Assembly (NCBI GenBank): GCA_963707215.1
Contig: CAVPPB010000003.1
Span: 1,504,001-1,568,000, forward strand
Length of the DNA stretch: 64,000 nucleotides
Reading direction: 5' to 3'
DNA from: an uncultured Chloroflexia bacterium
GTDB taxonomy: Bacteria; Chloroflexota; Limnocylindria; Limnocylindrales; CSP1-4
Shown: one piece after another, positions 4,218 to 54,808 of the stretch
Layout: every line of letters begins with the position of its first letter
Numbering within the stretch: position 1 is the stretch's first letter
Notes under the pieces: model-generated
The model's input: only the letters and a program-made list of their open reading frames with translations
Database searches by the model: none
What the model was told of the DNA's origin: nothing
Position numbers and translations under genes: made by a program

Positions 4218-7200
4218 TCAGCGGGAGACGGTGAGCCCCAGGCGGATGGCGACGGTCGCCGCCTCGACCCGGCCGGAGACGCCGAGTTTGGCGAGGATGT
4301 TGCCGACGTGCACGCCGACGGTCTTCTGGCTGATGAAGAGCCGATCGCCGATCTCGCGGTTGGTCCGACCCTCGGCCAGGAGCGCGAGCACCTCCCGCTC
4401 GCGGGGGCTCAGCCCGAAGGTATCCGCGGGTGCCGCCGCCCCATCCGCCAGCAGCGTCCTGGTGACCGAGGCGCCGACGCTCTCCGCCGCCGTAGCGGCG
4501 ACCACTGGCCCCGGGCCGACCGGCACCGCGATCGGCTCCGCGGCCACGGCCACCGAACCGACCGGAGCCGCCAGCAACGACTCGACCGTGTCGGCCAGCG
4601 ACTCGGGCAACCGGATGAGGGCTCGACCGGCAAGGTCGCGCAGCTCGCGCAGGAGAGGGAGCGCGCCGAGCTCGCTGGCGATCGTCGTCGCTTCGACCAG
4701 CGCCCCCCGGGCGGCGGGCCGGGCGACCCGGGCGTCGTCGCTCGCGACCAGCGCGGCCTCGGCCTGCCGCCAGCGGGCCTTGGCGGCCTGGTACCGGTCG
4801 CCGATCGCCTCGAGGGCCATCGCCACGGAGGCCCAGGCGCTCGGATCGTCGCGCCCGTCGATCCTGGCGTGGTAGGCCCGCGCGACCATGAGCCGGGCGT
4901 CGGCCTCCCGCCGCGAGCCCAGGCTCGGGTCCACGCCGGCGATCGCCACTGCCTCGGCCGCCTCGCGGAGGACCCGGCCGGCGGTGGTGCGGGCCTCGGC
5001 GATCGTGGCCAGGTCGCGTCGGCGACGGGCATCGGCGACGTCGGCCGCGGCGACTTCGAGGACCGTGGCAGCCAGGCGGGCGATCAGTGCCCAGTCCTCC
5101 GTACCGCGCGCACGCTCCCAGCCGAGGGATGCGGCCCTCCGAGCGTCGACGACATCGTCGCGCCAGAGCGCGAACGACGCGGCCGCCTGGTAGACGGGTG
5201 GCGCGTACTGCGGATCGGGGACCGTCTCGAGGTCGACCAGGAGCTGGCCGAGCAGGCGGTCGGCGACCTCGCCGGCCGTCGATTCGACCTCGATCGTAGC
5301 CAGGTTGATGGCGGCATTCGCCCAGCCGAACCCGGCCGGGTTCCACTCCAGCGAGGATCGGGCCAGGGCGCGAGCCTCGTCCCAGCGACCGAGCAGGAAG
5401 AGGGTGTCGGCCGCGTTCCCGCGGAGCCAGTTGCCGTAGACCGCCTCCTGGCCGACCTCGCGGGCGGCGGCGATCCCCTCCATCGCGACATCCACGGCGG
5501 CTTCGCGCTCACCCATGAGATCGAGGACGGTCGAGTGGTTGGCGTAGGCGCGGAACACCTCATCGAGGCGACCCGATCGGCGAGCCGTCTCGCGGGCCTC
5601 CTCAAGATGGCGGATGCCACGCTCGGGGTCCTCACCCCAGCCCTCCGAGACGCCGAGCGTCGTCAGCGCATGGGCGGACTCGCCGAGGGCGGCGTCGCCG
5701 ACGGCACGGGAGACCTCGAGCGCCTCGTTGGCCAGCACGATGGCCTCCTCGAAGTGGCCCACGAGCATGCGGATCTGAGCCAGTGCCGCCAGGATCCTGG
5801 CGCGTTCGCGACCGGCATCGGGGGGGACCATACGGACGGCTCGGCGAAGTGTCTCCTCCGCTCCATCGCGATCGCCCGCGGTCCATCGGTAGCGCCCCAG
5901 ACGGGCGAGGAGCTTGGCCAGGGCCAGCCGATCCTGGGCTTCGTCAAGCCCTGCCGCGGCCGCCTCCCCGAAGGCCACCGCACGGTCGGCCCCGCCGGCG
6001 GCGAAGGCGGCTCGACCGGCCCGGGCCAGCAGGTCCGAGAGCGAGGCCTCGTCATAGGCCTCGCCTCCGGGCACTGTCAACTCAAGGGCGGCCTCAAGGA
6101 ACGCCAGAGCCTGGTCCGGGGCGTCCAGGGCCTCGGCGGCCGCCGCGGCCGCGACCGCCGCGGGACGTGCCTCGTCCGGGCGGCCGGCCGCGATCCAGTG
6201 GTGCACCGCGATCGCCGGGCGATCCACCGCGGCCTGAGCGAGGGCCGCGTGGAGCCGCGGGCGCTGGTGCGGCAGGAGGTCACCTTCGATGGCGCGGGCG
6301 ACCAGCTCGTGTCGGATGGCGAACCAGGGACCTGGATCGGTCGATCCCAGCGGCGCCGGTCGCTCGACGATGATGCCGTGGTCCAGACCCTCGGCGAGTC
6401 CGGCCGACAGGTCCGGATCCAGCGGTCCCTCGGCCGACCGGGGGGCGGTCGTGGAGCGGGGCGGCGGCCGGTGCCGGCCAGCCTCGAACACCTCGGCCAC
6501 GACCGCGATCTCCGTCCCCGAGACGGGCCGCCCGGCCGGCGCCACGAACCGCAGGAGGCGTCGGCATTCGGGGGACCGGTCGGCCAGGCGAGCCCGGACC
6601 AGGTCTTCCAGCGAGCCGGTGAGCGATGCTCCGGACAGCTCGCGGCGGGCTGCCAGGAGCTCCTCGGCGACGAGCGGGCTGCCAGCCGAGCGCTCCGCGA
6701 CCAGCAGCAACACTGTGGCGCTGGGTCGCTCGCCCTCGATCCCGGTGATGAGCTGGGCCAGCTCGTCACGGTCGAGCGGACCCAGGTGCAGGGTGGCAGG
6801 CGGGCGTGGCGAGCTCTGCATCGCCGCCATGGTCGAGTGGACCGGGTGGTCGCGGTGGAGCGCGTCAGGCTGATAGCTGGCGATGACCGCGATCCGCTGG
6901 CCACGAGAGACCCGCGAGATGAACTCGGCGAACGACCGGGTGGCCGGGTCGGCCCGATGGAGGTCGTCGAGCATCAGGACCACCGGCGATGATTCGGCCA
7001 GGCGGGTCATGATGCCGAAGAGGCCCTCGAGGAGCCGCGACTGGCGGCGCTCGAGGTCCGAGACGAGCGGACGATCGGGCAGCAGGCCGAGCTCGGTGAG
7101 GCGCCGGCCCAGGATCGGCAGGAGTCGGACGAGCTCGCCGCCGTTGGGTCCGACGACGTCGGCCAGGTCACGGTCCGACAAGCGAAGCAGATGCGGCTCG

Positions 7201-7457
7201 AGCCCGGCGACGAGCGGCCCATAGGCCCGCCCGTCAGCAGCCGCATCGGCCTGGCAGCGGACGACCGTGACCGGCTCGCCCTCGAGGGAGAGCCGGCGCG
7301 TGGCTTCCTCGAGGAAGCGGGAGGCCCCGAGCCCGGCATCGGCCGCGATCAGGAGCGTCGTGGGCTCACCCCCCGCCGCGGCCTCGACGACCGCGGCGAG
7401 CCGGGCGAACTCGGCCGCCCGCCCCACGAACCGCGCACTGGCGTACGGCCCGGTCAT
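4218..7457 (-). CDS. Large LuxR-family regulator (AAA/STAND-like domain, TPR-like region, C-terminal LuxR HTH)
   Basis: FVGRAAE N-terminus, degenerate P-loop DAGLGAS, LDDLHRAD Walker B, C-terminal LSPREREVLALLAEGRTNREIGDRLFISQKTV. Start placed at ATG 7457, 7 nt after TAGAAT. Confidence 0.9.
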   Translation of the reverse strand: MTGPYASARFVGRAAEFARLAAVVEAAAGGEPTTLLIAADAGLGASRFLEEATRRLSLEGEPVTVVRCQADAAADGRAYGPLVAGLEPHLLRLSDRDLADVVGPNGGELVRLLPILGRRLTELGLLPDRPLVSDLERRQSRLLEGLFGIMTRLAESSPVVLMLDDLHRADPATRSFAEFISRVSRGQRIAVIASYQPDALHRDHPVHSTMAAMQSSPRPPATLHLGPLDRDELAQLITGIEGERPSATVLLLVAERSAGSPLVAEELLAARRELSGASLTGSLEDLVRARLADRSPECRRLLRFVAPAGRPVSGTEIAVVAEVFEAGRHRPPPRSTTAPRSAEGPLDPDLSAGLAEGLDHGIIVERPAPLGSTDPGPWFAIRHELVARAIEGDLLPHQRPRLHAALAQAAVDRPAIAVHHWIAAGRPDEARPAAVAAAAAAEALDAPDQALAFLEAALELTVPGGEAYDEASLSDLLARAGRAAFAAGGADRAVAFGEAAAAGLDEAQDRLALAKLLARLGRYRWTAGDRDGAEETLRRAVRMVPPDAGRERARILAALAQIRMLVGHFEEAIVLANEALEVSRAVGDAALGESAHALTTLGVSEGWGEDPERGIRHLEEARETARRSGRLDEVFRAYANHSTVLDLMGEREAAVDVAMEGIAAAREVGQEAVYGNWLRGNAADTLFLLGRWDEARALARSSLEWNPAGFGWANAAINLATIEVESTAGEVADRLLGQLLVDLETVPDPQYAPPVYQAAASFALWRDDVVDARRAASLGWERARGTEDWALIARLAATVLEVAAADVADARRRRDLATIAEARTTAGRVLREAAEAVAIAGVDPSLGSRREADARLMVARAYHARIDGRDDPSAWASVAMALEAIGDRYQAAKARWRQAEAALVASDDARVARPAARGALVEATTIASELGALPLLRELRDLAGRALIRLPESLADTVESLLAAPVGSVAVAAEPIAVPVGPGPVVAATAAESVGASVTRTLLADGAAAPADTFGLSPREREVLALLAEGRTNREIGDRLFISQKTVGVHVGNILAKLGVSGRVEAATVAIRLGLTVSR

Positions 7458-7605
7458 GGCGGCCATTCTACGGGCGCGGTCCGAGCGCTGGTCGGGCCGG
7501 TGGCCACGGAGTCCCCTGCTGACTGCGGGGACGCACCGGCTTCTCGCCGGGCCGACACGGGACGTCGGCGTCGCATCCGCCGTCCAGGGCGGCTAGGCTG
7601 GCCGG

Positions 7606-8538
7606 GTGCAGGAGCGCCGGCCGCCCCATCCCGCGAACGAGCTCAACGAGCTGAGCGGCGAGGAGTGGCTCTACTTCACCAAGTCGGTCTGGTCGACGGC
7701 CTACCCCTCCGAGCTCGGCCACGCGCTCCGGAAGGCCCATGGGGCGAACAAGCCGCCCCGCCTGATGGCCCGCCTGATCGAGTTCTTCACCCGCTCCGGG
7801 GAGCTGGTCCTCGACCCGTTCGCCGGCGTCGGCGGGACGCTGCTGGGGGCGGCGATCGCGCGCGGTCCACGCCGAGCGCTGGGGCTCGAGCTGGACCCTC
7901 GCTGGGCGGCCGTGTACGAGACCGTGCTCGCCGCCGCCCAGGCCGAGCGGGATGGCGCTGGGCCCCTGCTGGCGGATCTCGGGGCGCAGGATCCCGGCGG
8001 CCCGCGGAGCTTCGACCCGTCAGGCCTCGAGCTCAGGGTCGGAGATGCCGTCGAGTTCCTCGCCGAGCTGCCGGACGACGCCGTCGACTTCGTGGCGACC
8101 GATCCGCCGTACAACATCCAGCTGCCGCTGACGATGGCCGGCGGTCCTCTTGCCGAGCGTCACGCGAACCGCCGGACCGACTACGCGATGATCGGCGACG
8201 ACCCGGCCGACCTGGCCAACAGCCCGGACTACGGGACGTACCTCGACCGGATGGAGGGCGTCCTGCGAGAGCTGCACCGGGTCCTGCGGCCTGGCCGCTA
8301 CGCGACCGTCATCGTCCGCGACGCCTACCAGGGTGGTCGCTACCTGTTCACGGCGGCAGACCTCGCGGCCCGGGCGAGCGACGTCGGGTTCGTGCCGAAG
8401 GGGGACCTGGTCTGGTACCAGGCCGGCACCCGGCTCCGCCCGTACGGCTATCCGCGGAGCTTCGTGCCGAACATCGCCCACCAGCACATCCTGGTGCTCC
8501 GCCGGGAAGGTCAGGCGCGGGCCCGGGCGGCCCGGTAG
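7606..8538 (+). CDS. Orphan amino (N4-C/N6-A) nucleic-acid methyltransferase
   Basis: H.ANKPP.L, VLDPFAGVGGT (SAM motif I), TDPPY (motif IV), LHRVLRPGRY. Confidence 0.85.
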   Translation: MQERRPPHPANELNELSGEEWLYFTKSVWSTAYPSELGHALRKAHGANKPPRLMARLIEFFTRSGELVLDPFAGVGGTLLGAAIARGPRRALGLELDPRWAAVYETVLAAAQAERDGAGPLLADLGAQDPGGPRSFDPSGLELRVGDAVEFLAELPDDAVDFVATDPPYNIQLPLTMAGGPLAERHANRRTDYAMIGDDPADLANSPDYGTYLDRMEGVLRELHRVLRPGRYATVIVRDAYQGGRYLFTAADLAARASDVGFVPKGDLVWYQAGTRLRPYGYPRSFVPNIAHQHILVLRREGQARARAAR

Positions 8539-10097
8539 GCGGCGATCACGTCGTCGTCGATGCGCTCGTCATCGAGGTTCCCGGCCGCCGCGTCGGTCGT
8601 GGGCTGCCGGTAGGTCCAGGTCGGCATCGGGCGGGCGGCCGTGAGACGGGCGGCCAGGCCCGGTTCCAGCAGCTCCTCGTCACTCCGCCGGTCCGACCGG
8701 ACATCCTGGTCGCCCTCGACGTCCACCGCGGAGCCGAGCACCATCCGGTGGACCCAGCCTCGATTCCCGTCCGGGCAGAGGACGAGCCAGTAGCTGCCCG
8801 AGCTCTCGCAGAGGGCGACCTCGTCGCCCTCGTCGAGCAGGCCGATCTCGCGGGCCGTGAACTCGTCGGGCGAGTCAAGCAGGCGGACCACCCGATAGCG
8901 GATCCGGCGCCGCTCCAGGTCGTCGTCGAGGGGTACGGCCGCGCTGTCGAAGGTCAGACGAGGGGCCGGCTCGGGCTCGGGAGCGCGCGCGGGATCGTGT
9001 TTGCGGGCCTGAAGAAGGGACGGCCGGCGCCAGCGGGGGATCAGTGCCTCCGGATCCGTCCCGGGCGCTGCCGGTCCCTGTCCGGGCCACGCGGCGACGG
9101 CCATCGCACCGGATGCCAGCGCGGCGTCGGCGGACGCGGCGGCGGACCGCCCGCCCGACGGATCGTCCTCGTCGTCGTCGCGCCGGCGGCCGAAGAGGAG
9201 GAAGGCGGTGACCATCGCCGCACCGCCGATGGTCGAGATGACCACGGAGGTGAATGGATCGGCGACCAGCAAGTCGGGCGGCAACCCTGGGAGCGCCCCC
9301 CGACCGGGGGCGACGGCAGGTCCCGGGACGCGGCGGGTCGGGATGGGCCGCGGGTCACCGGCGGTCGCGGCACTCGGGGGCATCCACCAGCCAGGATCGA
9401 TTGCACCGACAGAGCCGCCCGGGGCCAGGCCTGGATCGCGGGACTCCCCGAAGCGATCCGCGGGCGGGGTCGGGGCCTCGAGAGTCGGTCCGACGAGTGC
9501 CGTGGGAGCGTTGGTGGGCTCCGGCTGAGGTGGGGCGGGGGCGTCGATCGCGGACCCGCCGCCGGCGTCCGGGGGGCTGAACACAGCCGGCGGCGGAGGC
9601 GCCGGGGTCGCGGGCGGCGGCGGCTTCGTCGTACCGCCGCCCGAGCCACTGTCGCCGGGCGTCGGCGCCGGAGCCGGGGGCGGCGTGACGGTCATCCAGC
9701 CATCGTCGAGCTCGCCGACGGCGCCCTCCGGATCGACCGCCACGTAGTGGACGTCGAGCTTGCCGGCCGGCGGGGAGGCTACGGCCATGTAGATGACGCC
9801 CTTGCGGACGTTCCCGTCGGCGCCGGCCGGGGCCATCGCGTAGCTCACCGGACCGACCCGGACCACGACCGACACGGGATCGAGGCCACCGCGATGGCGG
9901 TACTCGATCCGGAACGTCACGGGTTCGCCGGCCGCCGACGACCGATCCGAGACCGATGGCTGCGAGAGCCGGATCGGGCTCGGGGCGGCGCCCAGCGAGG
10001 GTCCGACCGCGACGAGGACCAGGACCAGCGCCGCCGACCATGCGACGGCCAGGCCCCGGACCCCACCCGGGGCCGGGGGGCGATGGATGAGACCCAT
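8511..10097 (-). CDS. Membrane protein: signal peptide, extracellular domain, Pro-rich linker, TM helix, C-terminal SH3-like domain
   Basis: Hydrophobic N-terminus; TM VVISTIGGAAMVTAFLLFGRRR; IGLLDEGDEV...SYWLVLCPDGNRGWVHR resembles SH3. Start inferred from SD gagg. Confidence 0.7.
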   Translation of the reverse strand: MGLIHRPPAPGGVRGLAVAWSAALVLVLVAVGPSLGAAPSPIRLSQPSVSDRSSAAGEPVTFRIEYRHRGGLDPVSVVVRVGPVSYAMAPAGADGNVRKGVIYMAVASPPAGKLDVHYVAVDPEGAVGELDDGWMTVTPPPAPAPTPGDSGSGGGTTKPPPPATPAPPPPAVFSPPDAGGGSAIDAPAPPQPEPTNAPTALVGPTLEAPTPPADRFGESRDPGLAPGGSVGAIDPGWWMPPSAATAGDPRPIPTRRVPGPAVAPGRGALPGLPPDLLVADPFTSVVISTIGGAAMVTAFLLFGRRRDDDEDDPSGGRSAAASADAALASGAMAVAAWPGQGPAAPGTDPEALIPRWRRPSLLQARKHDPARAPEPEPAPRLTFDSAAVPLDDDLERRRIRYRVVRLLDSPDEFTAREIGLLDEGDEVALCESSGSYWLVLCPDGNRGWVHRMVLGSAVDVEGDQDVRSDRRSDEELLEPGLAARLTAARPMPTWTYRQPTTDAAAGNLDDERIDDDVIAAYRAARARA

Positions 10098-10340
10098 CGG
10101 ATGATGCCTCCGCGCCGAGCGATAGGTGCTCGACACGGACCGAGGATGGGCGGCGGGTGGCGGGTGGGCAATGGTACGGGGGTCCCGCCCGGCCGGGGCC
10201 ATCGGGCAAGCGCCCCGAGCGGATGGGTGCGGTCAGCATCGGTCCGGGGCGGAGCCGTGGCGTCCGGGCGTCGAACGGATGCCAGGGCTGGTCCGATTCG
10301 GCTATCCCGGGAGCCGGGGGCGGCGCCCGATGATGCCGTC

Positions 10341-11102
10341 ATGCCGGTCCTCGTCGCGTCCCGCGACCGCTCCGTCGCGCGCTCATTCGCGAGCGCGTTC
10401 GTTGGTCTGACGGTCGGCACGATCCTCCTTGGGGGAGGGATCCTGCTCGGCTACCTGCTGCTGACCGCCGGGATCGTGGAGCGGTTCGCCGTGCCGCCGC
10501 GGCCGAGCCCCGTGGAGATGGCCGCCGGCGTGCTCGCCTGGACCTTCGCGCTCGTGGTACCGGCCGGGTTCGCGGTGATCGGGGCCCTCCGGCTCCTCGA
10601 CACGATCGGCGTCAGCAGGCACCGACCGCGGATCCGCCCGGCGGCCCGCGTAGCCCATGCGATGCCCGACGATCACCTTGTCGCATCGCGTGTCCGCCTG
10701 CCGGATGGCCGGCTGGTGCCGGAGCTGATCGTGGGTCCGTTCGGGGTCGTGGTCGTCGGCGAGCTGCCGCCGGCGGGCGCATCACGCCACAGCGGCGGGC
10801 GCTGGGAGGTCCGGGTCGAGCGCGGGCGCTGGGTCCCGATCGAGAACCCGCTCGACCGGACCAGCCGTGACGCCGAGCGGGTCCGCCGATGGCTCGGCTC
10901 GGACGACAGCGATCACGTGGTCCGCGTCCATGCCGTGCTGATCGATCCAGACCGACGGGTCGAGCGGACGCCGACCTGCGCCGTCACGACGGCCCAGGAG
11001 CTGCCGGCCTGGCTGGCGTCGCTGCCGGCCCAGCGCTCGTTCGTGGCGGATCGCCAGGCCCGGGTGGCGGATACGGTGCGCGCTTCCCTCGACGGAGGCT
11101 GA
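10341..11102 (+). CDS. Membrane protein with two TM helices and a NERD-like domain
   Basis: Real C-terminal part of the 1303-aa track ORF. ELIVGPFGVVVV...GRWEV...ENPLDRTSRDAERVRRWL resembles NERD, though acidic/lysine catalytic residues look degenerate. Confidence 0.6.
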   Translation: MPVLVASRDRSVARSFASAFVGLTVGTILLGGGILLGYLLLTAGIVERFAVPPRPSPVEMAAGVLAWTFALVVPAGFAVIGALRLLDTIGVSRHRPRIRPAARVAHAMPDDHLVASRVRLPDGRLVPELIVGPFGVVVVGELPPAGASRHSGGRWEVRVERGRWVPIENPLDRTSRDAERVRRWLGSDDSDHVVRVHAVLIDPDRRVERTPTCAVTTAQELPAWLASLPAQRSFVADRQARVADTVRASLDGG

Positions 11103-11116
11103 GGCCGGGCCGAGGC

Positions 11117-11192
11117 TGGTAGGGGAGCCAGGATTCGAACCTGGGACCGCCCGGATATAAGCCGGGTGCTCTAACCGCTGAGCTACTCCCCC
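11117..11192 (-). tRNA. tRNA-Ile with anticodon UAU
   Basis: GGGGGAG TA GCTC AGCGGTTA GAGC A CCCGG CT-TAT-AT CCGGG CGGTC CCAGG TTCGAAT CCTGG CTCCCCT A CCA: a 76-nt cloverleaf with A73 and encoded CCA. Confidence 0.95.
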
Positions 11193-11250
11193 ATCGGACG
11201 CCTGGCAGGGCCAAGCCCAGGGCATCGTACCCCCGGATGCCAGCGCAGCT

Positions 11251-17283: not shown

Positions 17284-18978
17284 TCAGCGCCGGGCGGAAG
17301 CGGTGACGAGATGCTCGGCGCCCGCCTGGAGGCCCTCGTGGACGGTCGCCACCGTGGCCAGGGTGTCGATCTCGGCAGGGGTCTTGTCGGGCCGCAGCCG
17401 AGCGATCCGGGGAAAGCGCAGCGCATAGCCGCTGCGATGGCGTCGCGACCGCATGATCACGTCGAAGGCCACCTCGACGACGACGGTCGGCTCGACGACC
17501 CGGTAGCGCCCGTGCCGGGAGACCGTGTGCTCCTCGAACCAGCGCGTCATCTCGGCCAGCTCCGCGTCGCTGAGCCCGCTGTAGGCCTTGCCGATCGTGA
17601 CCAGCCCCCCGGTGGCCTCGTCGCGGACGGCGAAGGTGTAGTCGGACAGGACCCCGTGCCGCTTGCCGTGCCCGACCTCGACGCCGACGACGACACAGTC
17701 GATGGTCGCCAGGGCCCTCTTGAGCTTCAACCAGCCCTGGCCTCGTCGCCCCGGGGTGTAGCGGCTCCCGGGATCCTTCACCATCAGGCCCTCGTTACGG
17801 CGTTCACGGGCTGCCGCGAAGGCTGCCTCGAGTCCCTCGACCCCCGAGACGCGCCCGAGGTACGAGAGGGCGAACCGGCCGCTCTCGTCGGCAAGCGGAA
17901 GGACGAGCACCTCCAGCCGGGCCCGCCGCTCGCGAAGCGGGAGATCCAGCAGTGGCTCGGCCTGGCCGTCTCGCGGCCCCAGGGCCAGGAGATCCCAGGC
18001 CACGAAGATGACCGGCACCCGCTCACGGATGGCGGCCGACGGCGCCTTGCGGCCGAGTCGAGCCTGGAGCGCGAGGAACGGCAGGACGGTGCCGTCTCGG
18101 TAGGCCAGGAGCTCGCCGTCGAGGACCCCGTCCCAGGGCAGGTCGCTGGCGTCGTCGGCCACCTCGGGGAACTGGCCGGTGACGTCGTGGAGGTCCCTCG
18201 AGTAGAGCGCGACCCGGTCACCGGCCCGGTGGAGCTGAGCCCGGATGCCGTCGTACTTGTCCTCGACCCAGACCTCCTCGCCGAGACGCGCGACGATGGC
18301 CGCCGCGTCCTCGGCCGGCGACGCGAGCATCGGTTTGAGCGGGCGGAAGAGCGTCAGCCGGGCAGCGTGGAGACGGTCCTCCCGGGCCAGGGCGGCGGTG
18401 CGGCCGACCTCGCCGGACAGCTGGGTGGCCCGCTTGACGGCATCGAGCGGGCGATCGAAGGCCCGGGCGATGGCCGCCTCGAGCAGGCCCTCTCGAAGGC
18501 CGATGCGAAGGTCGCCGCCGAGGATCATGACCACGCCCCGGGCGGTCGTCGGATCGCATCTGGAAAGCAGCCCGGCCAGGAGGTCGACCTTGGGAGCCGC
18601 GCCGGACGCCTGCTCGACCACCGACAGGGCGCGGTCCACCTCGACCAACGTCGGCGAGACCGCGGGATCCGGATCGTGACCGACTCCGACCAGGAGGTCC
18701 TCGGCGGCCAGGCCGACGTCCGAGTAGCGATCGTAGGCCTCGCGGAGCGCCTCGGGCGGGCGGGCGGCAACCGCGCTGATCGCCGCCGCCAGGCCGGCCC
18801 AGCCGAGCCCGATCGAGCGCGGGTCGCTCTCGGCGAACGGGCGCCCCGAGAAGTAGGTACAGGCGATCGGCAGCTCGAGCTCGTCGAGCTCGCGAAGGTA
18901 GGCGGCCAGGATCGCTGTCTTCTCCGAGGTGCGGGTCGTCGCGGCTACCTGCCCGGCGACCTCGGTCCAGCGTCGCAT
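17284..18978 (-). CDS. ATP-dependent DNA ligase (LigB-like, with DNA-binding domain)
   Basis: EDKYDGIRAQ (adenylated Lys), LDGE, EGLMVK, WLKLK, ALRFPRI. Confidence 0.95.
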   Translation of the reverse strand: MRRWTEVAGQVAATTRTSEKTAILAAYLRELDELELPIACTYFSGRPFAESDPRSIGLGWAGLAAAISAVAARPPEALREAYDRYSDVGLAAEDLLVGVGHDPDPAVSPTLVEVDRALSVVEQASGAAPKVDLLAGLLSRCDPTTARGVVMILGGDLRIGLREGLLEAAIARAFDRPLDAVKRATQLSGEVGRTAALAREDRLHAARLTLFRPLKPMLASPAEDAAAIVARLGEEVWVEDKYDGIRAQLHRAGDRVALYSRDLHDVTGQFPEVADDASDLPWDGVLDGELLAYRDGTVLPFLALQARLGRKAPSAAIRERVPVIFVAWDLLALGPRDGQAEPLLDLPLRERRARLEVLVLPLADESGRFALSYLGRVSGVEGLEAAFAAARERRNEGLMVKDPGSRYTPGRRGQGWLKLKRALATIDCVVVGVEVGHGKRHGVLSDYTFAVRDEATGGLVTIGKAYSGLSDAELAEMTRWFEEHTVSRHGRYRVVEPTVVVEVAFDVIMRSRRHRSGYALRFPRIARLRPDKTPAEIDTLATVATVHEGLQAGAEHLVTASARR

Positions 18979-19008
18979 CGTGGCGGGGATGGTATACGCT
19001 CCCGGGGC

Positions 19009-19755
19009 ATGCTCCCGCGCGGCTGGCTTCCCGATCAGCTCGTCGGCCGGACGGTCGTTCTCCGGCCCCACGCGCCGGAGAACCTCGCCGCCTTCCGACG
19101 CTGGTACGCGGACCCCGAGATCTCACGCCTGACCCGCTACCAGGACGGTCCGATGCGGCGGGACGAGATCGACCGCTTCTTCCAGGTGCGCGCCGTCGGC
19201 ACGCAGTCGCTGGCGATGGCGATCCACCTCCGGGGCAGCGGCCGGCTCATCGGCTCGTGCGCCTTCAGTGCCCTCGACCCCGACAACGGCGCGGCGATGT
19301 TCCACATCACGATCGGGGAGAAGGACTGCTGGGGCAGGGGCCACGGCACCGAGGCGACCGAGCTGATGCTCGACCATGCTTTCGGAACGCTGGAGCTCCA
19401 TCGCGTCGCCCTGGCGGTCTTCGCCTTCAACGAGCGGGCGATCCGCTCGTACCGCAGGGTCGGCTTCGTGATCGAGGGTCGATCACGCCAGGCCATCTTC
19501 CGGGACGGACGGTTCTGGGACGAGCTCCACATGAGCGTGCTGTCGGACGAGTGGCGGACCCGGCGCGACCGCTCGACCGGCGCCGTCCCGACCGAGGCGA
19601 GCACCGGTTCCGCGGTGACCGCCGGAGCGGCGGCGGGCGGCGACGGCGTGAGCTCCGGTGCCCCGCAAGCGGCCGTCCCAAGCCCCCAGGCCGGCGCCGC
19701 CCAGGACGACGAGGGCCCGGACCGCGGCGTCCTTGGGCGGCTGGGGTTGCGCTGA
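19009..19755 (+). CDS. GNAT N-acetyltransferase, RimJ/RimL family
   Basis: IGEKDCWGRGHGTEA, FNERAIRSYRRVGFVIEG; TACGCT upstream. Confidence 0.88.
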   Translation: MLPRGWLPDQLVGRTVVLRPHAPENLAAFRRWYADPEISRLTRYQDGPMRRDEIDRFFQVRAVGTQSLAMAIHLRGSGRLIGSCAFSALDPDNGAAMFHITIGEKDCWGRGHGTEATELMLDHAFGTLELHRVALAVFAFNERAIRSYRRVGFVIEGRSRQAIFRDGRFWDELHMSVLSDEWRTRRDRSTGAVPTEASTGSAVTAGAAAGGDGVSSGAPQAAVPSPQAGAAQDDEGPDRGVLGRLGLR

Positions 19756-37858: not shown

Positions 37859-38632
37859 TCAGTTCCTCGCCACCAGCGCGAGGGTCGGATCGGGTCGCAC
37901 GACGCGCAGCCCTCGGTCCAGGTAGATGACCTCGCGCGCCAGCAGGCCCGCCAGCGCCTCCAGCCGCGCCTCGGCGGTCGGGGCTTCGAGCAGCGCCTGG
38001 CGATGGACCGGATCCACCTCGACGATCCCGGCCAGGAGGTGCGACAGCAGGAGCGGGTCGGCGGGCATCGCGAGATCCGAGCGGCCGTCCTGGTCGGCGG
38101 GCGACCCGGCCGGGTCGGGATCGGGGGCGGCGGGACGACGCGATGGGGCGCTCGTCCCGCTGCGTCGACCCGCGGAGGGCGATGGATCGGGTCCCGACTC
38201 GGGCTCGTCGAGGAGGACCCGGACGCCGTCGACGTAGCGAACGAAACGACGGGTCACCAGGCGCACCAGGGAGGCCGCGCGTCGCTCGTCCCCGACCACC
38301 TCGTCGAGCGGCTCGACCGTCGCCGTCAGGTACGGCTCGCTGACCGTGTCGACGGCCAGGACCCGGAAGCGCTCGACGCCGACGGTGACGATGTCGTAGC
38401 GCCCGTCGGAGTAGCGGTCGGCCTCGCGTATCTCGGCCAGCGTGCCCACGGCGGCCACGGCCAGGTCGGTCGAGCCGACCTCCCGGCCGTCGCGGATCCA
38501 GACGACCCCGAACGGTCGATCCTCCGCGAGGCAGCGGCCGACCATCAACCGATACCGCGGCTCGAAGATGTGGAGCGGCAGGGCCACTCCCGGGCAGAGG
38601 ACCGTGTGGAGGGGGAAGAGCGGGATCTCCAT
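37859..38632 (-). CDS. Stand-alone LON substrate-binding (N-terminal) domain protein
   Basis: IPLFPLHTVLCPG..LPLHIFEPRYRLMV; DGRY; no AAA or protease domain. Confidence 0.88.
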   Translation of the reverse strand: MEIPLFPLHTVLCPGVALPLHIFEPRYRLMVGRCLAEDRPFGVVWIRDGREVGSTDLAVAAVGTLAEIREADRYSDGRYDIVTVGVERFRVLAVDTVSEPYLTATVEPLDEVVGDERRAASLVRLVTRRFVRYVDGVRVLLDEPESGPDPSPSAGRRSGTSAPSRRPAAPDPDPAGSPADQDGRSDLAMPADPLLLSHLLAGIVEVDPVHRQALLEAPTAEARLEALAGLLAREVIYLDRGLRVVRPDPTLALVARN

Positions 38633-38779
38633 CACCACCAGGGATACGTGCGAGACACGCGTCGGGATGAGCCTGCCGCATCCGGCGCGACGATCGGCCG
38701 GGCAAGCACAGTGCCGCCGGCTGGGCCGACGGCACTCGGGTCCGCGACGGACGGCCGCGGCATGGCCGTCACCCCGTTC

Positions 38780-53615: not shown

Positions 53616-54350
53616 CTAGACCCTTGGGTGCAGCTCCGGGTGGCGTCGATGGACCCAGTCCCGGATGGCCCACGTCGTCGTCTTGAAGGCGATGCCATCC
53701 CACGGGATCGCCTCCGGTCGGAACGGCCGGACCTCGAGTGCCTCGGGCGTCGTCGTTGCCACCCCGCCGACGATCCGGGCCTCGAAGGCGAGGACGACGA
53801 TCGCCGCCTCCAGGCGCGAGTAGAGGCCCACGATCTCACCCGGCTCGACGACCAGGCCGGTCTCCTCGAGGGTCTCGCGGATGGCCGCCTCGGTCACCGT
53901 CTCGTCCACCTCCAGGAACCCGCCCGGCTGCGCCCATGAGCCGAGGCCGGGCTCGATCCCCCGCCGGATGAGGACCAGCTCGCCGGTCTCGGTGACCGGC
54001 AGGGTCGTCACGACCAGGCGCGGGTTGACGTAGGCGACGAGGCCGCACGACGCACAGGCCAGCCGGTCGCGGTCCTCTCCCTCCACGGGACCGAGCGTCA
54101 GGGTCGTCCCACACCGGGTGCAGTGGTTCATCGTCGCCTCGATCCAGCGCGGCGCGCCAAGGCCGGAGGCGACGTCGGTGGAGCGGGCGTCGGGGCCCCG
54201 GCCGATGGTCTCGACGAGCCGGCGGGCCTCCGCCTGGCGCTCTTCCTCGTCGAGTTCGGCGGCCAGCTCCGGATCGATGGGACGGCCGTCGCGATCGCGC
54301 GGACCGAAGGGGTCGCGGCGGCGGTCGCCGGCGCCGGATCGCTCGCTCAT
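53616..54350 (-). CDS. NUDIX hydrolase with N-terminal zinc ribbon
   Basis: HCTRCG...CASCG..YVNP; Nudix box GGFLEVDETVTEAAIRETLEETG. Confidence 0.9.
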   Translation of the reverse strand: MSERSGAGDRRRDPFGPRDRDGRPIDPELAAELDEEERQAEARRLVETIGRGPDARSTDVASGLGAPRWIEATMNHCTRCGTTLTLGPVEGEDRDRLACASCGLVAYVNPRLVVTTLPVTETGELVLIRRGIEPGLGSWAQPGGFLEVDETVTEAAIRETLEETGLVVEPGEIVGLYSRLEAAIVVLAFEARIVGGVATTTPEALEVRPFRPEAIPWDGIAFKTTTWAIRDWVHRRHPELHPRV

Positions 54351-54808
54351 GCCGACAGCACCGCGACGGTGAAGACGACGGCGATCGACAGGATCGTCAG
54401 CGTCGCGACGACCCAGGCCAGGCGGAACGCACCCTTGACCCGGTCCACCGGCATCCAGGCCCAGGCCGAACGCCATATGCGGAGCGTGGCGTCGAGGGTC
54501 GTGATCATCAGCAGCGGCGCGCCGATGACGACGCAGAGCTTGATGAGGGGGCTGCCGAGGGGGACACCGAGCTCGAGCGCGGTGATGGCGACCGCGCCGC
54601 AGACGAGCGCGATGACCGACAGGTTGATGTAGTGCCGCTGGAGCGGCGTCGGCTTCGTCTCCGGGACCGAGCGGGGCGGCAGCCCCTGGAGGCTCGGGGG
54701 CACGACCGGCTCGCGGACGGCCTGGCGATCGAGCACGGGCATGCCCGGCTCCCAGCGTGGGTCGTCCATGCCGGCCGGAGGACGCTCGGGCGTCGACGTC
54801 CGCTCCAT
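54347..54808 (-). CDS. Hypothetical membrane protein (3 TM)
   Basis: Three hydrophobic segments; TACACT -10 upstream; ATGA overlap with the NUDIX gene. Confidence 0.7.
   Translation of the reverse strand: MERTSTPERPPAGMDDPRWEPGMPVLDRQAVREPVVPPSLQGLPPRSVPETKPTPLQRHYINLSVIALVCGAVAITALELGVPLGSPLIKLCVVIGAPLLMITTLDATLRIWRSAWAWMPVDRVKGAFRLAWVVATLTILSIAVVFTVAVLSA

What the first reader, a model, noticed from the sequence alone, without database searches (positions are those of the whole stretch)
11117..11192. tRNA-Ile with a genomically encoded UAU anticodon
Seen: an intact 76-nt cloverleaf whose 7-nt anticodon loop CT-TAT-AT gives anticodon UAU, with A73, CCA and an upstream TACGAT -10. Established: almost all bacteria read AUA with tRNA-Ile2(CAU) modified to lysidine by TilS; UAU tRNAs are known only in a few lineages, e.g. 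Mycoplasma mobile, which lacks TilS. Inference: this organism may decode AUA without TilS and need another way to avoid misreading AUG. AUA is rare here but used (ATA at 54476-54478, - strand). No integrase or att duplication is nearby, so the tRNA looks native rather than phage-borne.
Basis: partly seen in the sequence, partly recalled or inferred. Interest (0 to 1): 0.8.

Follow-up and report, generated by a model that had tools for sequence, protein, structure and literature searches.

The report
Lysidine-free isoleucine tRNA in Limnocylindrales
This soil and freshwater bacterium, like its whole order, has lost the enzyme nearly all bacteria use to read the rare isoleucine codon AUA, and instead carries a dedicated tRNA whose anticodon is written directly in the gene.

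Summary
Window 11117-11192 (minus strand) is an intact 76-nt tRNA with anticodon UAU, A73 and an encoded CCA.

- **Host.** It is a 72% GC Chloroflexota of the order Limnocylindrales.
- **This genome.** It has no tilS and no Ile2-type tRNA(CAU). It has only an initiator and an elongator tRNA-Met.
- **tilS locus.** tilS is missing from its ancestral site between tRNA-Met and ftsH on an unbroken contig.
- **301 genomes of the class.** TilS: 0/103 in the two families of this order, against 168/197 in three sister families. A tRNA(UAU) pattern: 94/103 against 0/197.
- **201 genomes of the class.** Ile2-type tRNA(CAU): 0/67 against 110/133.
- **The tRNA family.** It shows strong compensatory covariation and an invariant CUUAUA loop.
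- **Other parts.** IleRS is type 2. MnmE and MnmG were not found. AUA is rare but sits at a conserved Ile site.

The closest precedents are Mycoplasma mobile, Bifidobacterium and Neorickettsia, so this is a new member of a known kind. It has its own features: a pyrimidine at position 38 and an acceptor stem that is not Ile2-like. Expression, the state of U34 and how AUG is avoided remain untested.

The parts
11117..11192 (-). tRNA-Ile(UAU) gene, 76 nt, with A73 and an encoded CCA
   Evidence: ARAGORN. Rfam tRNA 72.8 bits. Cloverleaf. Covariation in 22 orthologues.
11155..11161 (-). Anticodon loop C32-U33-U34-A35-U36-A37-U38. The anticodon is at 11159-11157. Position 38 is a pyrimidine.
   Evidence: Sequence. 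CTTATA is invariant in 22 of 22 orthologues. Position 38 is T or C in all but one (G170: G) of the matches listed. C32-U38 occurs in only 1 of the 47 CCA-bearing tRNAs of this genome.
11224..11229 (-). -10-like hexamer TACGAT, 32-37 nt upstream of the tRNA
   Evidence: Sequence. TANNNT lies within 45 nt upstream in 18 of 25 orthologous loci against 0 of 25 in a control window. The consensus promoter scan does not call it.
54476..54478 (-). In-frame ATA codon (codon 111) of ORF 54347-54808, a small hydrophobic protein
   Evidence: ORF list. GC3 0.94 along the whole ORF.
38429..38431 (-). In-frame ATA codon (codon 70) of ORF 37859-38638, in a fully coding context
   Evidence: Local GC3 is 1.0 on both sides. 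The aligned codon in the one orthologue held is ATC, Ile.

Best explanation
The gene encodes the only AUA-reading tRNA of a Limnocylindrales bacterium (Chloroflexota).

**Inferred history.** The common ancestor of this order deleted tilS from its site between the elongator tRNA-Met gene and ftsH. It also lost the Ile2-type tRNA(CAU). It fixed a tRNA whose UAU anticodon is written in the DNA.

**Inferred mechanism.**
- The tRNA is transcribed from its own promoter.
- It is charged with isoleucine by the organism's type-2 (eukaryote/archaea-like) IleRS. That IleRS was already present before tilS was lost.
- U34 pairs with the A of AUA.
- U34 cannot carry the usual bacterial (c)mnm5 group, because MnmE and MnmG are missing. 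It is therefore unmodified or carries some other modification.
- AUG is protected by a separate tRNA-Met(CAU). Protection may also come from the ribosome, as in Mycoplasma mobile, and from the unusual C32/pyrimidine-38 loop. These last two points are inference only.

**Shown.** The gene, its conservation and covariation, the loss of tilS and of tRNA-Ile2(CAU) across the order, the IleRS type, the missing MnmE and MnmG, and the use of AUA at a conserved Ile site.

**Inferred.** Charging by IleRS, the state of U34, and the way AUG is avoided.
For: 1. **Real tRNA.**
2. **No tilS in this genome.** The best TIGR02432 hit scores 20.5 bits against a cut-off of 93.6 and is a WbuX amidotransferase at 218.4 bits. 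No TiaS was found.
3. **Deletion scar.** In sisters G047 and G043 the order is tRNA-Met(CAU), tilS, ftsH. In G000 the same tRNA-Met (C3:240901-240975) is followed directly by ftsH, 80% identical to the G047 FtsH, on a 1.73-Mb contig. A tRNA(CAU) lies 33-513 nt upstream of the matched ftsH segment on the same strand in 23 of 30 loci of the order: 14 of 20 in f1 and 9 of 10 in f2.
4. **Only two CAU tRNAs in G000.** One has A11 and G12 in the D stem and a C1xA72 mismatch, which marks it as fMet. The other has C3-G70, G4-C69 and G5-C68, which marks it as Met. The criteria are those of Silva 2006.
5. **TilS across 301 genomes of the class.** f1 0/91 and f2 0/12, against f3 80/92, f4 86/103 and f5 2/2.
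6. **tRNA(UAU) pattern in the same genomes.** f1 83/91 and f2 11/12, against f3 0/92, f4 0/103 and f5 0/2.
7. **Ile2-type tRNA(CAU) pattern, 201 genomes.** f1 0/60 and f2 0/7, against f3 46/66, f4 63/66 and f5 1/1.
8. **Type-2 IleRS.** Pfam gives tRNA-synt_1, Anticodon_1 and DUF5915 and no zinc-finger domain. The best PDB matches are the 1032-aa 8c8v/8c8w chains at E 1e-175 or better, against 1e-61 to 1e-64 for the 921-aa chains 8c9e/8c9f. The same type occurs in TilS-positive sisters.
9. **AUA codons.** A strict coding-context count gives ATA 42, ATT 50 and ATC 23134. The ATA in serine hydroxymethyltransferase aligns with the Ile of the SGIR motif in 5 of 5 PDB alignments shown. Other sites align with I, V, L or F and never M.
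10. **U34 enzymes.** MnmG gives no hit in G000, and none over the cut-off in 5 of 5 other genomes of the class. MnmE gives none over the cut-off. MnmA is present.
11. **Precedent.** Bifidobacterium and Neorickettsia lack tilS, carry tRNA-Ile(TAT) and have the eukaryote-type IleRS (Taniguchi 2013, Discussion read).
Against: - No expression data: no RNA run holds the stretch.
- Charging by IleRS, the state of U34 and AUA/AUG discrimination are untested.
- All genomes are metagenome-assembled. G000 is rated 84.8% complete.
- The tRNA(UAU) pattern was not found in 8 of 91 f1 genomes and 1 of 12 f2 genomes.
- The G34 pocket residues of type-2 IleRS (Q961, R964, K965, L969 of the P. megaterium enzyme) are unchanged in this order: Q and R kept, R or K at the third, mostly L at the fourth. 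No adaptation of IleRS to U34 is visible.
- The ATA-site sample is small, and only the SHMT site is a strict Ile position.
- A few TilS-positive Chloroflexota also give tRNA-like UAU matches: G317, G375, G583, and G418, where ARAGORN confirmed it. The tRNA alone therefore does not prove independence from TilS.
Confidence: 0.87

Rival explanations
1. The canonical system is still there. Under this reading, tilS and tRNA-Ile2(CAU) lie in the unassembled 15% of the genome, and the UAU tRNA is a redundant extra, as in Lactobacillus casei.
For: G000 is rated 84.8% complete. Some TilS-positive Chloroflexota give tRNA-like UAU matches.
Against: - TilS was found in 0 of 103 genomes of the order, many of them 90-97% complete.
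- Ile2-type tRNA(CAU) was found in 0 of 67.
- tilS is missing from its conserved site between tRNA-Met and ftsH on an unbroken contig, and the same junction is seen in 23 of 30 loci of the order.
- Every amino acid has a tRNA in G000, and 47 of the calls carry CCA.
Confidence: 0.02
2. The tRNA is a recent horizontal or phage-borne acquisition and not a native part of the decoding system.
For: Phage and island tRNAs often supply rare codons. The tRNA's nearest sequence relatives are uninformative.
Against: - It is present in both families of the order, with changes that track the families.
- The C-terminal part of the convergent ORF 7191-11102 lies next to it in 9 of 25 relatives' loci and 74 of 118 pattern loci.
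- Pfam found no integrase domain in the eight neighbouring ORFs scanned.
- GC content is flat at 0.70-0.75 across the window.
Confidence: 0.02
3. The tRNA reads AUA but is not an isoleucine tRNA. AUA would then be reassigned, for example to Met as in mitochondria, or effectively unassigned. The acceptor stem differs from the elongator tRNA-Met only at pair 3-70.
For: The acceptor stem GGGGGAG is one pair away from the GGCGGAG of tRNA-Met, and both have G1.U72 and A73. AUA is very rare, about 0.2% of Ile-box codons.
Against: - The differing pair is G3-C70, which Silva 2006 gives as a mark of tRNA-Ile and a negative discriminator for Met and fMet.
- The CAU anticodon is the dominant MetRS identity element according to a passage of PMC12514573, and it is absent here.
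- The ATA in SHMT sits at an Ile in all 5 PDB alignments shown.
- Other ATA sites align with I, V, L or F and never M.
Confidence: 0.04
4. Same system, but U34 is not bare. An enzyme other than MnmEG modifies U34 (or U36), as pseudouridine does in eukaryotic tRNA-Ile(UAU) or cnm5U in haloarchaeal mutants, and this modification gives the AUA-over-AUG specificity. This is a variant of the best explanation and does not exclude it.
For: - Eukaryotic tRNA-Ile bears pseudouridine-A-pseudouridine and is charged by the same IleRS type (Taniguchi 2013).
- Taniguchi 2013 leaves open that the UAU anticodon is modified in M. suis.
- The conserved, unusual loop context (C32, Y38) could be a recognition element.
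Against: - M. mobile tRNA-Ile(UAU) has an unmodified U34 (abstract and section 14 of Taniguchi 2013).
- MnmE and MnmG are not found.
- No candidate enzyme was identified here.
Confidence: 0.3

Closest known systems
Mycoplasma mobile AUA decoding by tRNA-Ile2(UAU) (Taniguchi et al. 2013, PMC3575796)
   Same: No tilS, no tRNA-Ile(CAU), and a genomically encoded UAU anticodon that reads AUA. Both lineages need another way to spare AUG.
   Different: M. mobile has a type-1 IleRS whose zinc-binding domain carries Arg865 in place of the conserved Trp. Here IleRS is type 2 and has no zinc-binding domain. M. mobile is an AT-rich reduced parasite and a single species. Here it is a whole order of free-living, 72% GC environmental bacteria. 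The U34 state is known for M. mobile (unmodified) and unknown here.
Bifidobacterium and Neorickettsia: tilS-less bacteria with tRNA-Ile(TAT) and eukaryote-type IleRS (Taniguchi 2013 Discussion; tRNAscan-SE 2.0 paper, PMC8450103)
   Same: The same three-part signature: tRNA-Ile(UAU), no tilS and a type-2 IleRS.
   Different: A different phylum, so the origin is independent. Here the TilS-positive sister families also have type-2 IleRS, so the order of events can be read. The tRNA here has a pyrimidine at 38 and an acceptor stem unlike the local Ile2 type. I did not see the sequences of the Bifidobacterium or Neorickettsia tRNAs, because supplements are closed.
A second tilS-less Chloroflexota family found here (f27, uncultured MAGs)
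   Same: TilS 0/6 and tRNA(UAU) pattern 5/6. Type-2 IleRS.
   Different: Its tRNA keeps the GGGCCC acceptor stem of the Ile2(CAU) type and A38, as expected from a simple C34-to-T change. The Limnocylindrales tRNA does not.
Bacillus subtilis tilS suppressor (Fabret 2011, seen only as cited; Kohrer 2014, PMC3919564, abstract only)
   Same: The loss of TilS function is compensated by a tRNA-Ile with U34.
   Different: That is a laboratory mutant derived from tRNA-Ile1(GAU) with a type-1 IleRS. This is a natural, ancient and fixed state.
Eukaryotic cytosolic tRNA-Ile(UAU) and archaeal tRNA-Ile3(UAU) of Nanoarchaeum and Korarchaeum
   Same: A UAU anticodon read by an IleRS with the type-2 C-terminal architecture.
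   Different: Eukaryotes modify it to pseudouridine-A-pseudouridine. No such pathway is known or was tested here, and this is a bacterial translation system.

Membership tests
TilS-independent AUA decoding by tRNA-Ile(UAU) | A genomic tRNA gene with anticodon TAT and an intact cloverleaf | tested here: met
TilS-independent AUA decoding by tRNA-Ile(UAU) | No tilS homologue in the genome | tested here: met
   None over the cut-off in G000. Found in 0/103 genomes of the order. Deletion scar at the ancestral locus.
TilS-independent AUA decoding by tRNA-Ile(UAU) | No tRNA-Ile2(CAU) | tested here: met
   Only fMet- and Met-type CAU tRNAs in G000. The Ile2-type pattern was found in 0/67 genomes of the order against 110/133 in the sisters.
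TilS-independent AUA decoding by tRNA-Ile(UAU) | AUA codons are still used and mean isoleucine | tested here: met
   42 ATA codons in strict coding context. SHMT site Ile in 5/5 alignments shown. Other sites I, V, L or F. The sample is small.
TilS-independent AUA decoding by tRNA-Ile(UAU) | IleRS charges the UAU tRNA | not testable with these tools
   Only the IleRS type could be read: type 2.
TilS-independent AUA decoding by tRNA-Ile(UAU) | The tRNA is expressed | tested here: inconclusive
   No RNA run holds the stretch. A conserved -10-like hexamer and covariation argue for function.
M. mobile subtype (type-1 IleRS with a basic residue in place of E. coli Trp905) | Zinc-binding C-terminal domain with Arg or Lys at the wobble-contact site | tested here: not met
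   No zinc-finger domain. DUF5915/ARD3-type C terminus.
Bifidobacterium/Neorickettsia subtype (type-2 IleRS) | Eukaryote/archaea-type IleRS together with tRNA-Ile(TAT) and no tilS | tested here: met
   The description of the subtype comes from Taniguchi 2013.
Canonical bacterial lysidine system | TilS together with tRNA-Ile2(CAU) bearing C4-G69 and C5-G68 | tested here: not met
Archaeal agmatidine system | TiaS | tested here: not met
   PF08489 gives no match in G000, while the controls ring in 4 archaea.

The most novel reading that the evidence does not exclude
Limnocylindrales keep a U34 isoleucine tRNA from reading AUG by a means not yet described. This would be the conserved C32/pyrimidine-38 anticodon loop, unique among this genome's tRNAs. 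It could tune ribosome binding by itself, or act as the handle for an unknown U34 or U36 modification. The lineage has no MnmEG pathway at all. The tRNA would then be a remodelled molecule and not a simple C34-to-U derivative of tRNA-Ile2.
Probability: 0.2. Interest if true: 0.75.

Novelty: new member of a known kind. Interest (0 to 1): 0.6.

Why it matters
TilS is treated as near-universal and essential in bacteria. The tRNAscan-SE 2.0 paper reports tRNA-Ile3(UAU) in place of Ile2(CAU) in 17 of 4036 bacterial genomes, naming three genera, most of them host-associated.

Here an entire order of abundant free-living soil and lake bacteria does without TilS, and so does a second Chloroflexota family. 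The TilS-positive sister families share the same IleRS type and also lack MnmG. This gives a clean natural before-and-after comparison for how a codon's decoding system is replaced:
- The permissive background came first: type-2 IleRS, very rare AUA, and C34/U34 tRNA pairs in every split box.
- The scar of the tilS deletion is still visible.
- Two lineages in one phylum reached the same end with differently built tRNAs.

The finding also matters for annotation, because tilS is unreliable as a completeness marker in these lineages. It is also relevant to TilS as an antibacterial target and to work on freeing the AUA codon.

Tried and rejected
- **Origin of the tRNA.** Global identity of the window tRNA to every tRNA of G000 and to the sisters' CAU tRNAs gave no clear parent. 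The top values were Gln(CUG) 0.77, f4 Ile2(CAU) 0.75 and elongator Met 0.71, so I make no claim about descent. G1.U72 is shared by 5 tRNAs of G000 and is not diagnostic.
- **IleRS adaptation.** The G34 pocket is conserved. A lineage-specific EGD (30 of 30 f1/f2 relatives' sequences, and G000 itself) against EGL (3 of 3 TilS-positive sisters) lies near it, but f27 has EGR and only three sisters were seen. This is a weak lead only.
- **Conserved ATA in the window ORF 17311-19755.** This is an artefact of an over-long ORF. The GNAT domain starts at residue 582, so the ATA conserved in 17 of 30 orthologous loci is probably in a promoter or 5' leader.
- **Gene caller.** My crude caller over-extends N termini. 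I rely on the strict count and give the crude count (216 ATA) only as an upper figure.
- **Promoter and terminator scan.** Nothing was found.
- **Expression.** No RNA holder was listed. The laid DNA contigs were short pieces, mostly 90-95% alike. They show only that nothing other than TAT was reported at the anticodon where 5 listed pieces of X1 cover it. The parts without cover say nothing.
- **Exact-pattern scan.** It found nothing. The degenerate one found at least 118 records. Three of the 80 listed rows carry other phylum labels (Paceibacterota, Zixiibacteriota, Verrucomicrobiia). I did not follow these up.
- **TmcAL (PF05636).** No match in G000. It also rings in only 4 of the 14 control genomes, so this says little.
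- **Voided search.** I set max_evalue to 1e-300 to shorten the output. This removed all matches, and the controls rang 0. It cost one search and 401 genomes. I repeated it properly.
- **Literature.** Searches found no paper linking Chloroflexota or Limnocylindria with loss of tilS or with tRNA-Ile(UAU). The supplementary tables of Taniguchi 2013 and of the tRNAscan-SE 2.0 paper list the species concerned, but I could not see them.
- **Unpublished genomes.** The sister-family tallies include G270, G136, G142, G312, G099, G259, G180, G122, G153, G127 and G187, all in f3 or f4. The tallies include G351, G520, G447, G472 and G559, in f9, f17, f18 and f52. None lies in f1, f2 or f27, and the conclusions do not depend on them.
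Full report
**Observation**

ARAGORN finds a single tRNA in the window, tRNA-Ile(tat) at 11117-11192 on the minus strand. Rfam's tRNA model matches it end to end at 72.8 bits against a gathering score of 29. The minus strand reads as follows:
- a 7-bp acceptor stem GGGGGAG/CTCCCCT with G1.U72
- regular D, anticodon and T arms
- the loop C-U-U-A-U-A-U, with the anticodon at 11159-11157
- A73 and an encoded CCA

The finding did not state the strand.

**Whose genome**

The window is G000:C3:1504001-1568000 of a 3.26-Mb, 5-contig assembly with 72% GC, rated 84.8% complete. A degenerate pattern of the tRNA's 5' half hits at least 118 public contigs. Nearly all of their titles name Chloroflexota, Candidatus Limnocylindria or Limnocylindrales MAGs.

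**The rest of the AUA machinery in this genome**

The genome-wide ARAGORN scan gives 52 calls. Of these, 47 carry CCA and look genuine, and every amino acid is covered. Only two have anticodon CAT.
- C2:308589-308663 has a C1xA72 mismatch, A11 and G12 in the D stem and GGG/CCC in the anticodon stem. It is the initiator.
- C3:240901-240975 has C3-G70, G4-C69 and G5-C68.

Passages of Silva et al. 2006 give the criteria. C3-G70 is usual for Met and fMet. G3 or C70 indicates tRNA-Ile. C4-G69 and C5-G68 are frequent in tRNA-Ile(CAT). The second CAU tRNA is therefore the elongator tRNA-Met.

The TilS N-terminal model TIGR02432 finds nothing above its cut-off. The best hit is 20.5 bits against 93.6, while 10 of the 14 control genomes score over the cut-off. 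That weak hit is a WbuX amidotransferase. The TiaS model finds nothing.

**The trait belongs to the whole order**

| Feature surveyed | Genomes | f1 | f2 | f3 | f4 | f5 |
|---|---|---|---|---|---|---|
| TilS | 301 of the class | 0/91 | 0/12 | 80/92 | 86/103 | 2/2 |
| tRNA(UAU) loop plus T-arm pattern | the same 301 | 83/91 | 11/12 | 0/92 | 0/103 | 0/2 |
| Ile2-type tRNA(CAU) pattern (G3-C70, C4-G69, C5-G68) | 201 of the class | 0/60 | 0/7 | 46/66 | 63/66 | 1/1 |

- f1 and f2 are the two families of the window's order. The other three are sister families.
- The reversed-pattern control hit 3 genomes.
- Five TilS-positive sisters were examined in detail. The four searched for all CAU tRNAs (G042, G043, G047, G052) each hold all three kinds. 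In the fifth, G050, I saw only the Ile2-type one.
- Among the 40 nearest relatives plus G000, BLAST followed by ARAGORN confirmed an orthologous tRNA-Ile(tat) in 26 of 41 genomes. Thirty loci were examined, and the other four were unrelated tRNAs.

**Positive evidence for deletion rather than an assembly gap**

In sister G047 the order is tRNA-Met(CAU), tilS (PP-loop domain, 160 bits), ftsH, then a DnaB-like gene. In sister G043 it is tRNA-fMet, tRNA-Met, tilS, ftsH.

In G000 the same tRNA-Met is followed directly by ftsH, inside a 1.73-Mb contig. Its product is 80% identical to that of G047 and carries the Peptidase_M41, AAA and FtsH_ext domains.

Across the order, a tRNA(CAU) lies 33-513 nt upstream of the matched ftsH segment on the same strand in 23 of 30 loci, 14 of 20 in f1 and 9 of 10 in f2. 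Three of the seven exceptions have under 350 nt of upstream sequence. The other four may be ftsH paralogues. A scar shared by both families fits one deletion in their common ancestor.

**The tRNA is under selection as a UAU tRNA**

- In 22 distinct orthologues 99.1% of paired cells are standard pairs.
- Eleven of 21 pairs change on both sides, including all five anticodon-stem pairs and four of five T-stem pairs.
- No shuffle reaches the observed values, and slid controls fall to 36-54%.
- The loop CTTATA is invariant.
- Position 38 is T or C in all but one (G170: G) of the matches listed.
- C32-U38 occurs in this tRNA alone among the 47 tRNAs of G000, and 34 of the 47 have A38.
- A TANNNT hexamer, often preceded by TG, lies within 45 nt upstream in 18 of 25 orthologous loci against 0 of 25 in a control window. 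The simple consensus scan calls no promoter.
- The C-terminal part of the convergent ORF 7191-11102 is the tRNA's neighbour in 9 of 25 relatives' 3-kb loci and 74 of 118 pattern loci.
- Pfam found no integrase domain in the eight neighbouring ORFs scanned.

**Who charges it**

The IleRS of G000 is a 1137-codon ORF with tRNA-synt_1, Anticodon_1 and DUF5915 and no zinc-finger domain. It matches the 1032-residue chains 8c8u/8c8v/8c8w/8c9d at E of about 1e-174 to 1e-177. PMC13752280 describes 8C8V as the tRNA-free P. megaterium IleRS2 structure. The match to the 921-residue chains 8c9e/8c9f is only about 1e-61 to 1e-64. It is therefore type 2.

Taniguchi et al. 2013 (Discussion read) note that the tilS-less Bifidobacterium and Neorickettsia have this eukaryote-type IleRS. 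They suggest it may accept UAU because eukaryotic IleRS charges the pseudouridine-A-pseudouridine tRNA.

The TilS-positive sisters G042, G043 and G050 and the f27 genomes also have type-2 IleRS, 47-52% identical through the C terminus. The enzyme type therefore predates the loss of tilS.

The residues that PMC13752280 assigns to the G34 pocket (Q961, R964, K965, L969; passages) align with Q, R, R or K, and mostly L in G000 and 30 relatives. I see no specific adaptation.

**Wobble chemistry**

MnmG gives no hit in G000 and none over the cut-off in two further f1 genomes, one f2 genome and two TilS-positive sisters. MnmE gives only GTPase-domain hits below the cut-off. MnmA is present at 301.8 bits.

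The class as a whole seems to lack xm5U34. G000 carries both U34 and C34 tRNAs for Lys, Glu, Gln, Arg(AGR) and Leu(UUR). A UAU/CAU pair in the Ile/Met box follows the same logic.

**Is AUA used, and as Ile?**

A crude ORF caller counts 216 ATA codons, 0.25 per 1000. Requiring GC3 of at least 0.85 in the 25 codons on each side gives ATA 42, ATT 50 and ATC 23134.

| ATA site | Aligned residues |
|---|---|
| Serine hydroxymethyltransferase, codon 398 | Ile of the SGIR motif in 5 of 5 PDB alignments shown (two distinct proteins) |
| Transketolase | F, L, V |
| PotA-like ATPase | V |
| Six sites with orthologues among the fetched loci | I, V or L; never M |

**Wider phylum**

In 301 Chloroflexota genomes, 269 have TilS over the cut-off. 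Besides f1 (0/15) and f2 (0/2), one more family has none: f27, at 0/6.

Five of those six f27 genomes carry a tRNA(UAU) pattern. ARAGORN calls it tRNA-Ile(tat) in five public MAG contigs. That tRNA keeps the GGGCCC acceptor stem of the Ile2(CAU) type and A38, as expected from a C34-to-T change. The Limnocylindrales tRNA is only 75% identical to the sisters' Ile2(CAU) and has no clear parent.

A few TilS-positive genomes also give tRNA-like UAU matches (G317, G375, G418, G583), and so does TilS-less G510. Many other pattern hits in low-GC genomes are at the level of the reversed-pattern control.

**What is known**

- Taniguchi 2013 lists nine species in three clades without tilS and with tRNA-Ile(TAT).
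- The tRNAscan-SE 2.0 paper reports 17 of 4036 bacterial genomes, from Bifidobacterium, Mycoplasma and Neorickettsia, and two archaea (passages).
- A 2026 paper still speaks of "rare cases".
- Four full-text searches found nothing on Chloroflexota or Limnocylindria in this respect.
- I could not see the supplementary species tables.

**Verdict**

It is a further, independent and unusually large instance of a known kind of system, with its own features: type-2 IleRS background, no MnmEG, a pyrimidine at 38, and an acceptor stem unlike the Ile2 type.

Not shown here: expression, charging, the state of U34 and how AUG is spared. No RNA run held the stretch. DNA contigs of other runs that cover the anticodon show no other letters there.

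Noticed in passing
Outside the window: f27 genomes G403, G419, G435, G443, G451; loci L222-L226: A second Chloroflexota family has no TilS (0/6) and has its own tRNA-Ile(UAU) (5/6). This tRNA was built on the Ile2-type acceptor stem and has A38, which points to an independent origin within the same phylum.
   Followed up: partly
G000 and G007, G009, G025, G042, G043 (whole genomes): MnmG is not found over the cut-off in any of the six Limnocylindria genomes searched, and MnmE is not found in G000. MnmA is present. The class seems to lack xm5U34 modification altogether, whether or not it has TilS.
   Followed up: partly
L262 (G047:C2:490500-498500), L264 (G043:C20:122000-130000): In TilS-positive sisters tilS sits immediately downstream of the elongator tRNA-Met(CAU) gene (in f3 also of tRNA-fMet) and upstream of ftsH. 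It does not sit next to its substrate tRNA-Ile2.
   Followed up: yes
window 18994-18996, inside ORF 17311-19755 (+): An ATA triplet just upstream of a GNAT acetyltransferase domain (which starts at residue 582 of an over-long ORF) is conserved in 17 of 30 orthologous loci. It is probably part of a promoter or leader and not a codon.
   Followed up: partly
window 7191-11102 (+): A 1303-codon ORF with no Pfam match. Its C-terminal part is conserved and ends 15 nt from the 3' end of the tRNA, and it is syntenic with the tRNA in many Limnocylindria contigs. The true start and the function are unknown.
   Followed up: no
G000:C1:33220-36633 (L202:883-4296, minus strand): The G000 IleRS matches its sisters in two pieces (query residues about 22-172 and 218-1135). 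This suggests an insertion of about 45 residues after residue 172 that the sisters lack.
   Followed up: no
G000:C3:1213406-1213504: A tRNA-Sec(tca) gene is present, so the organism probably uses selenocysteine.
   Followed up: no
L094, L097, L105: Three contigs carrying the Limnocylindrales-type tRNA-Ile(UAU) 5' half are labelled Paceibacterota, Zixiibacteriota and Verrucomicrobiia. They may be mis-binned contigs or real occurrences elsewhere.
   Followed up: no
window 11122-11189 (+): A weak Rfam hit to Plastid-ycf2 (26 bits against a gathering score of 65.7) is only the antisense strand of the tRNA. It is a chance match.
   Followed up: yes
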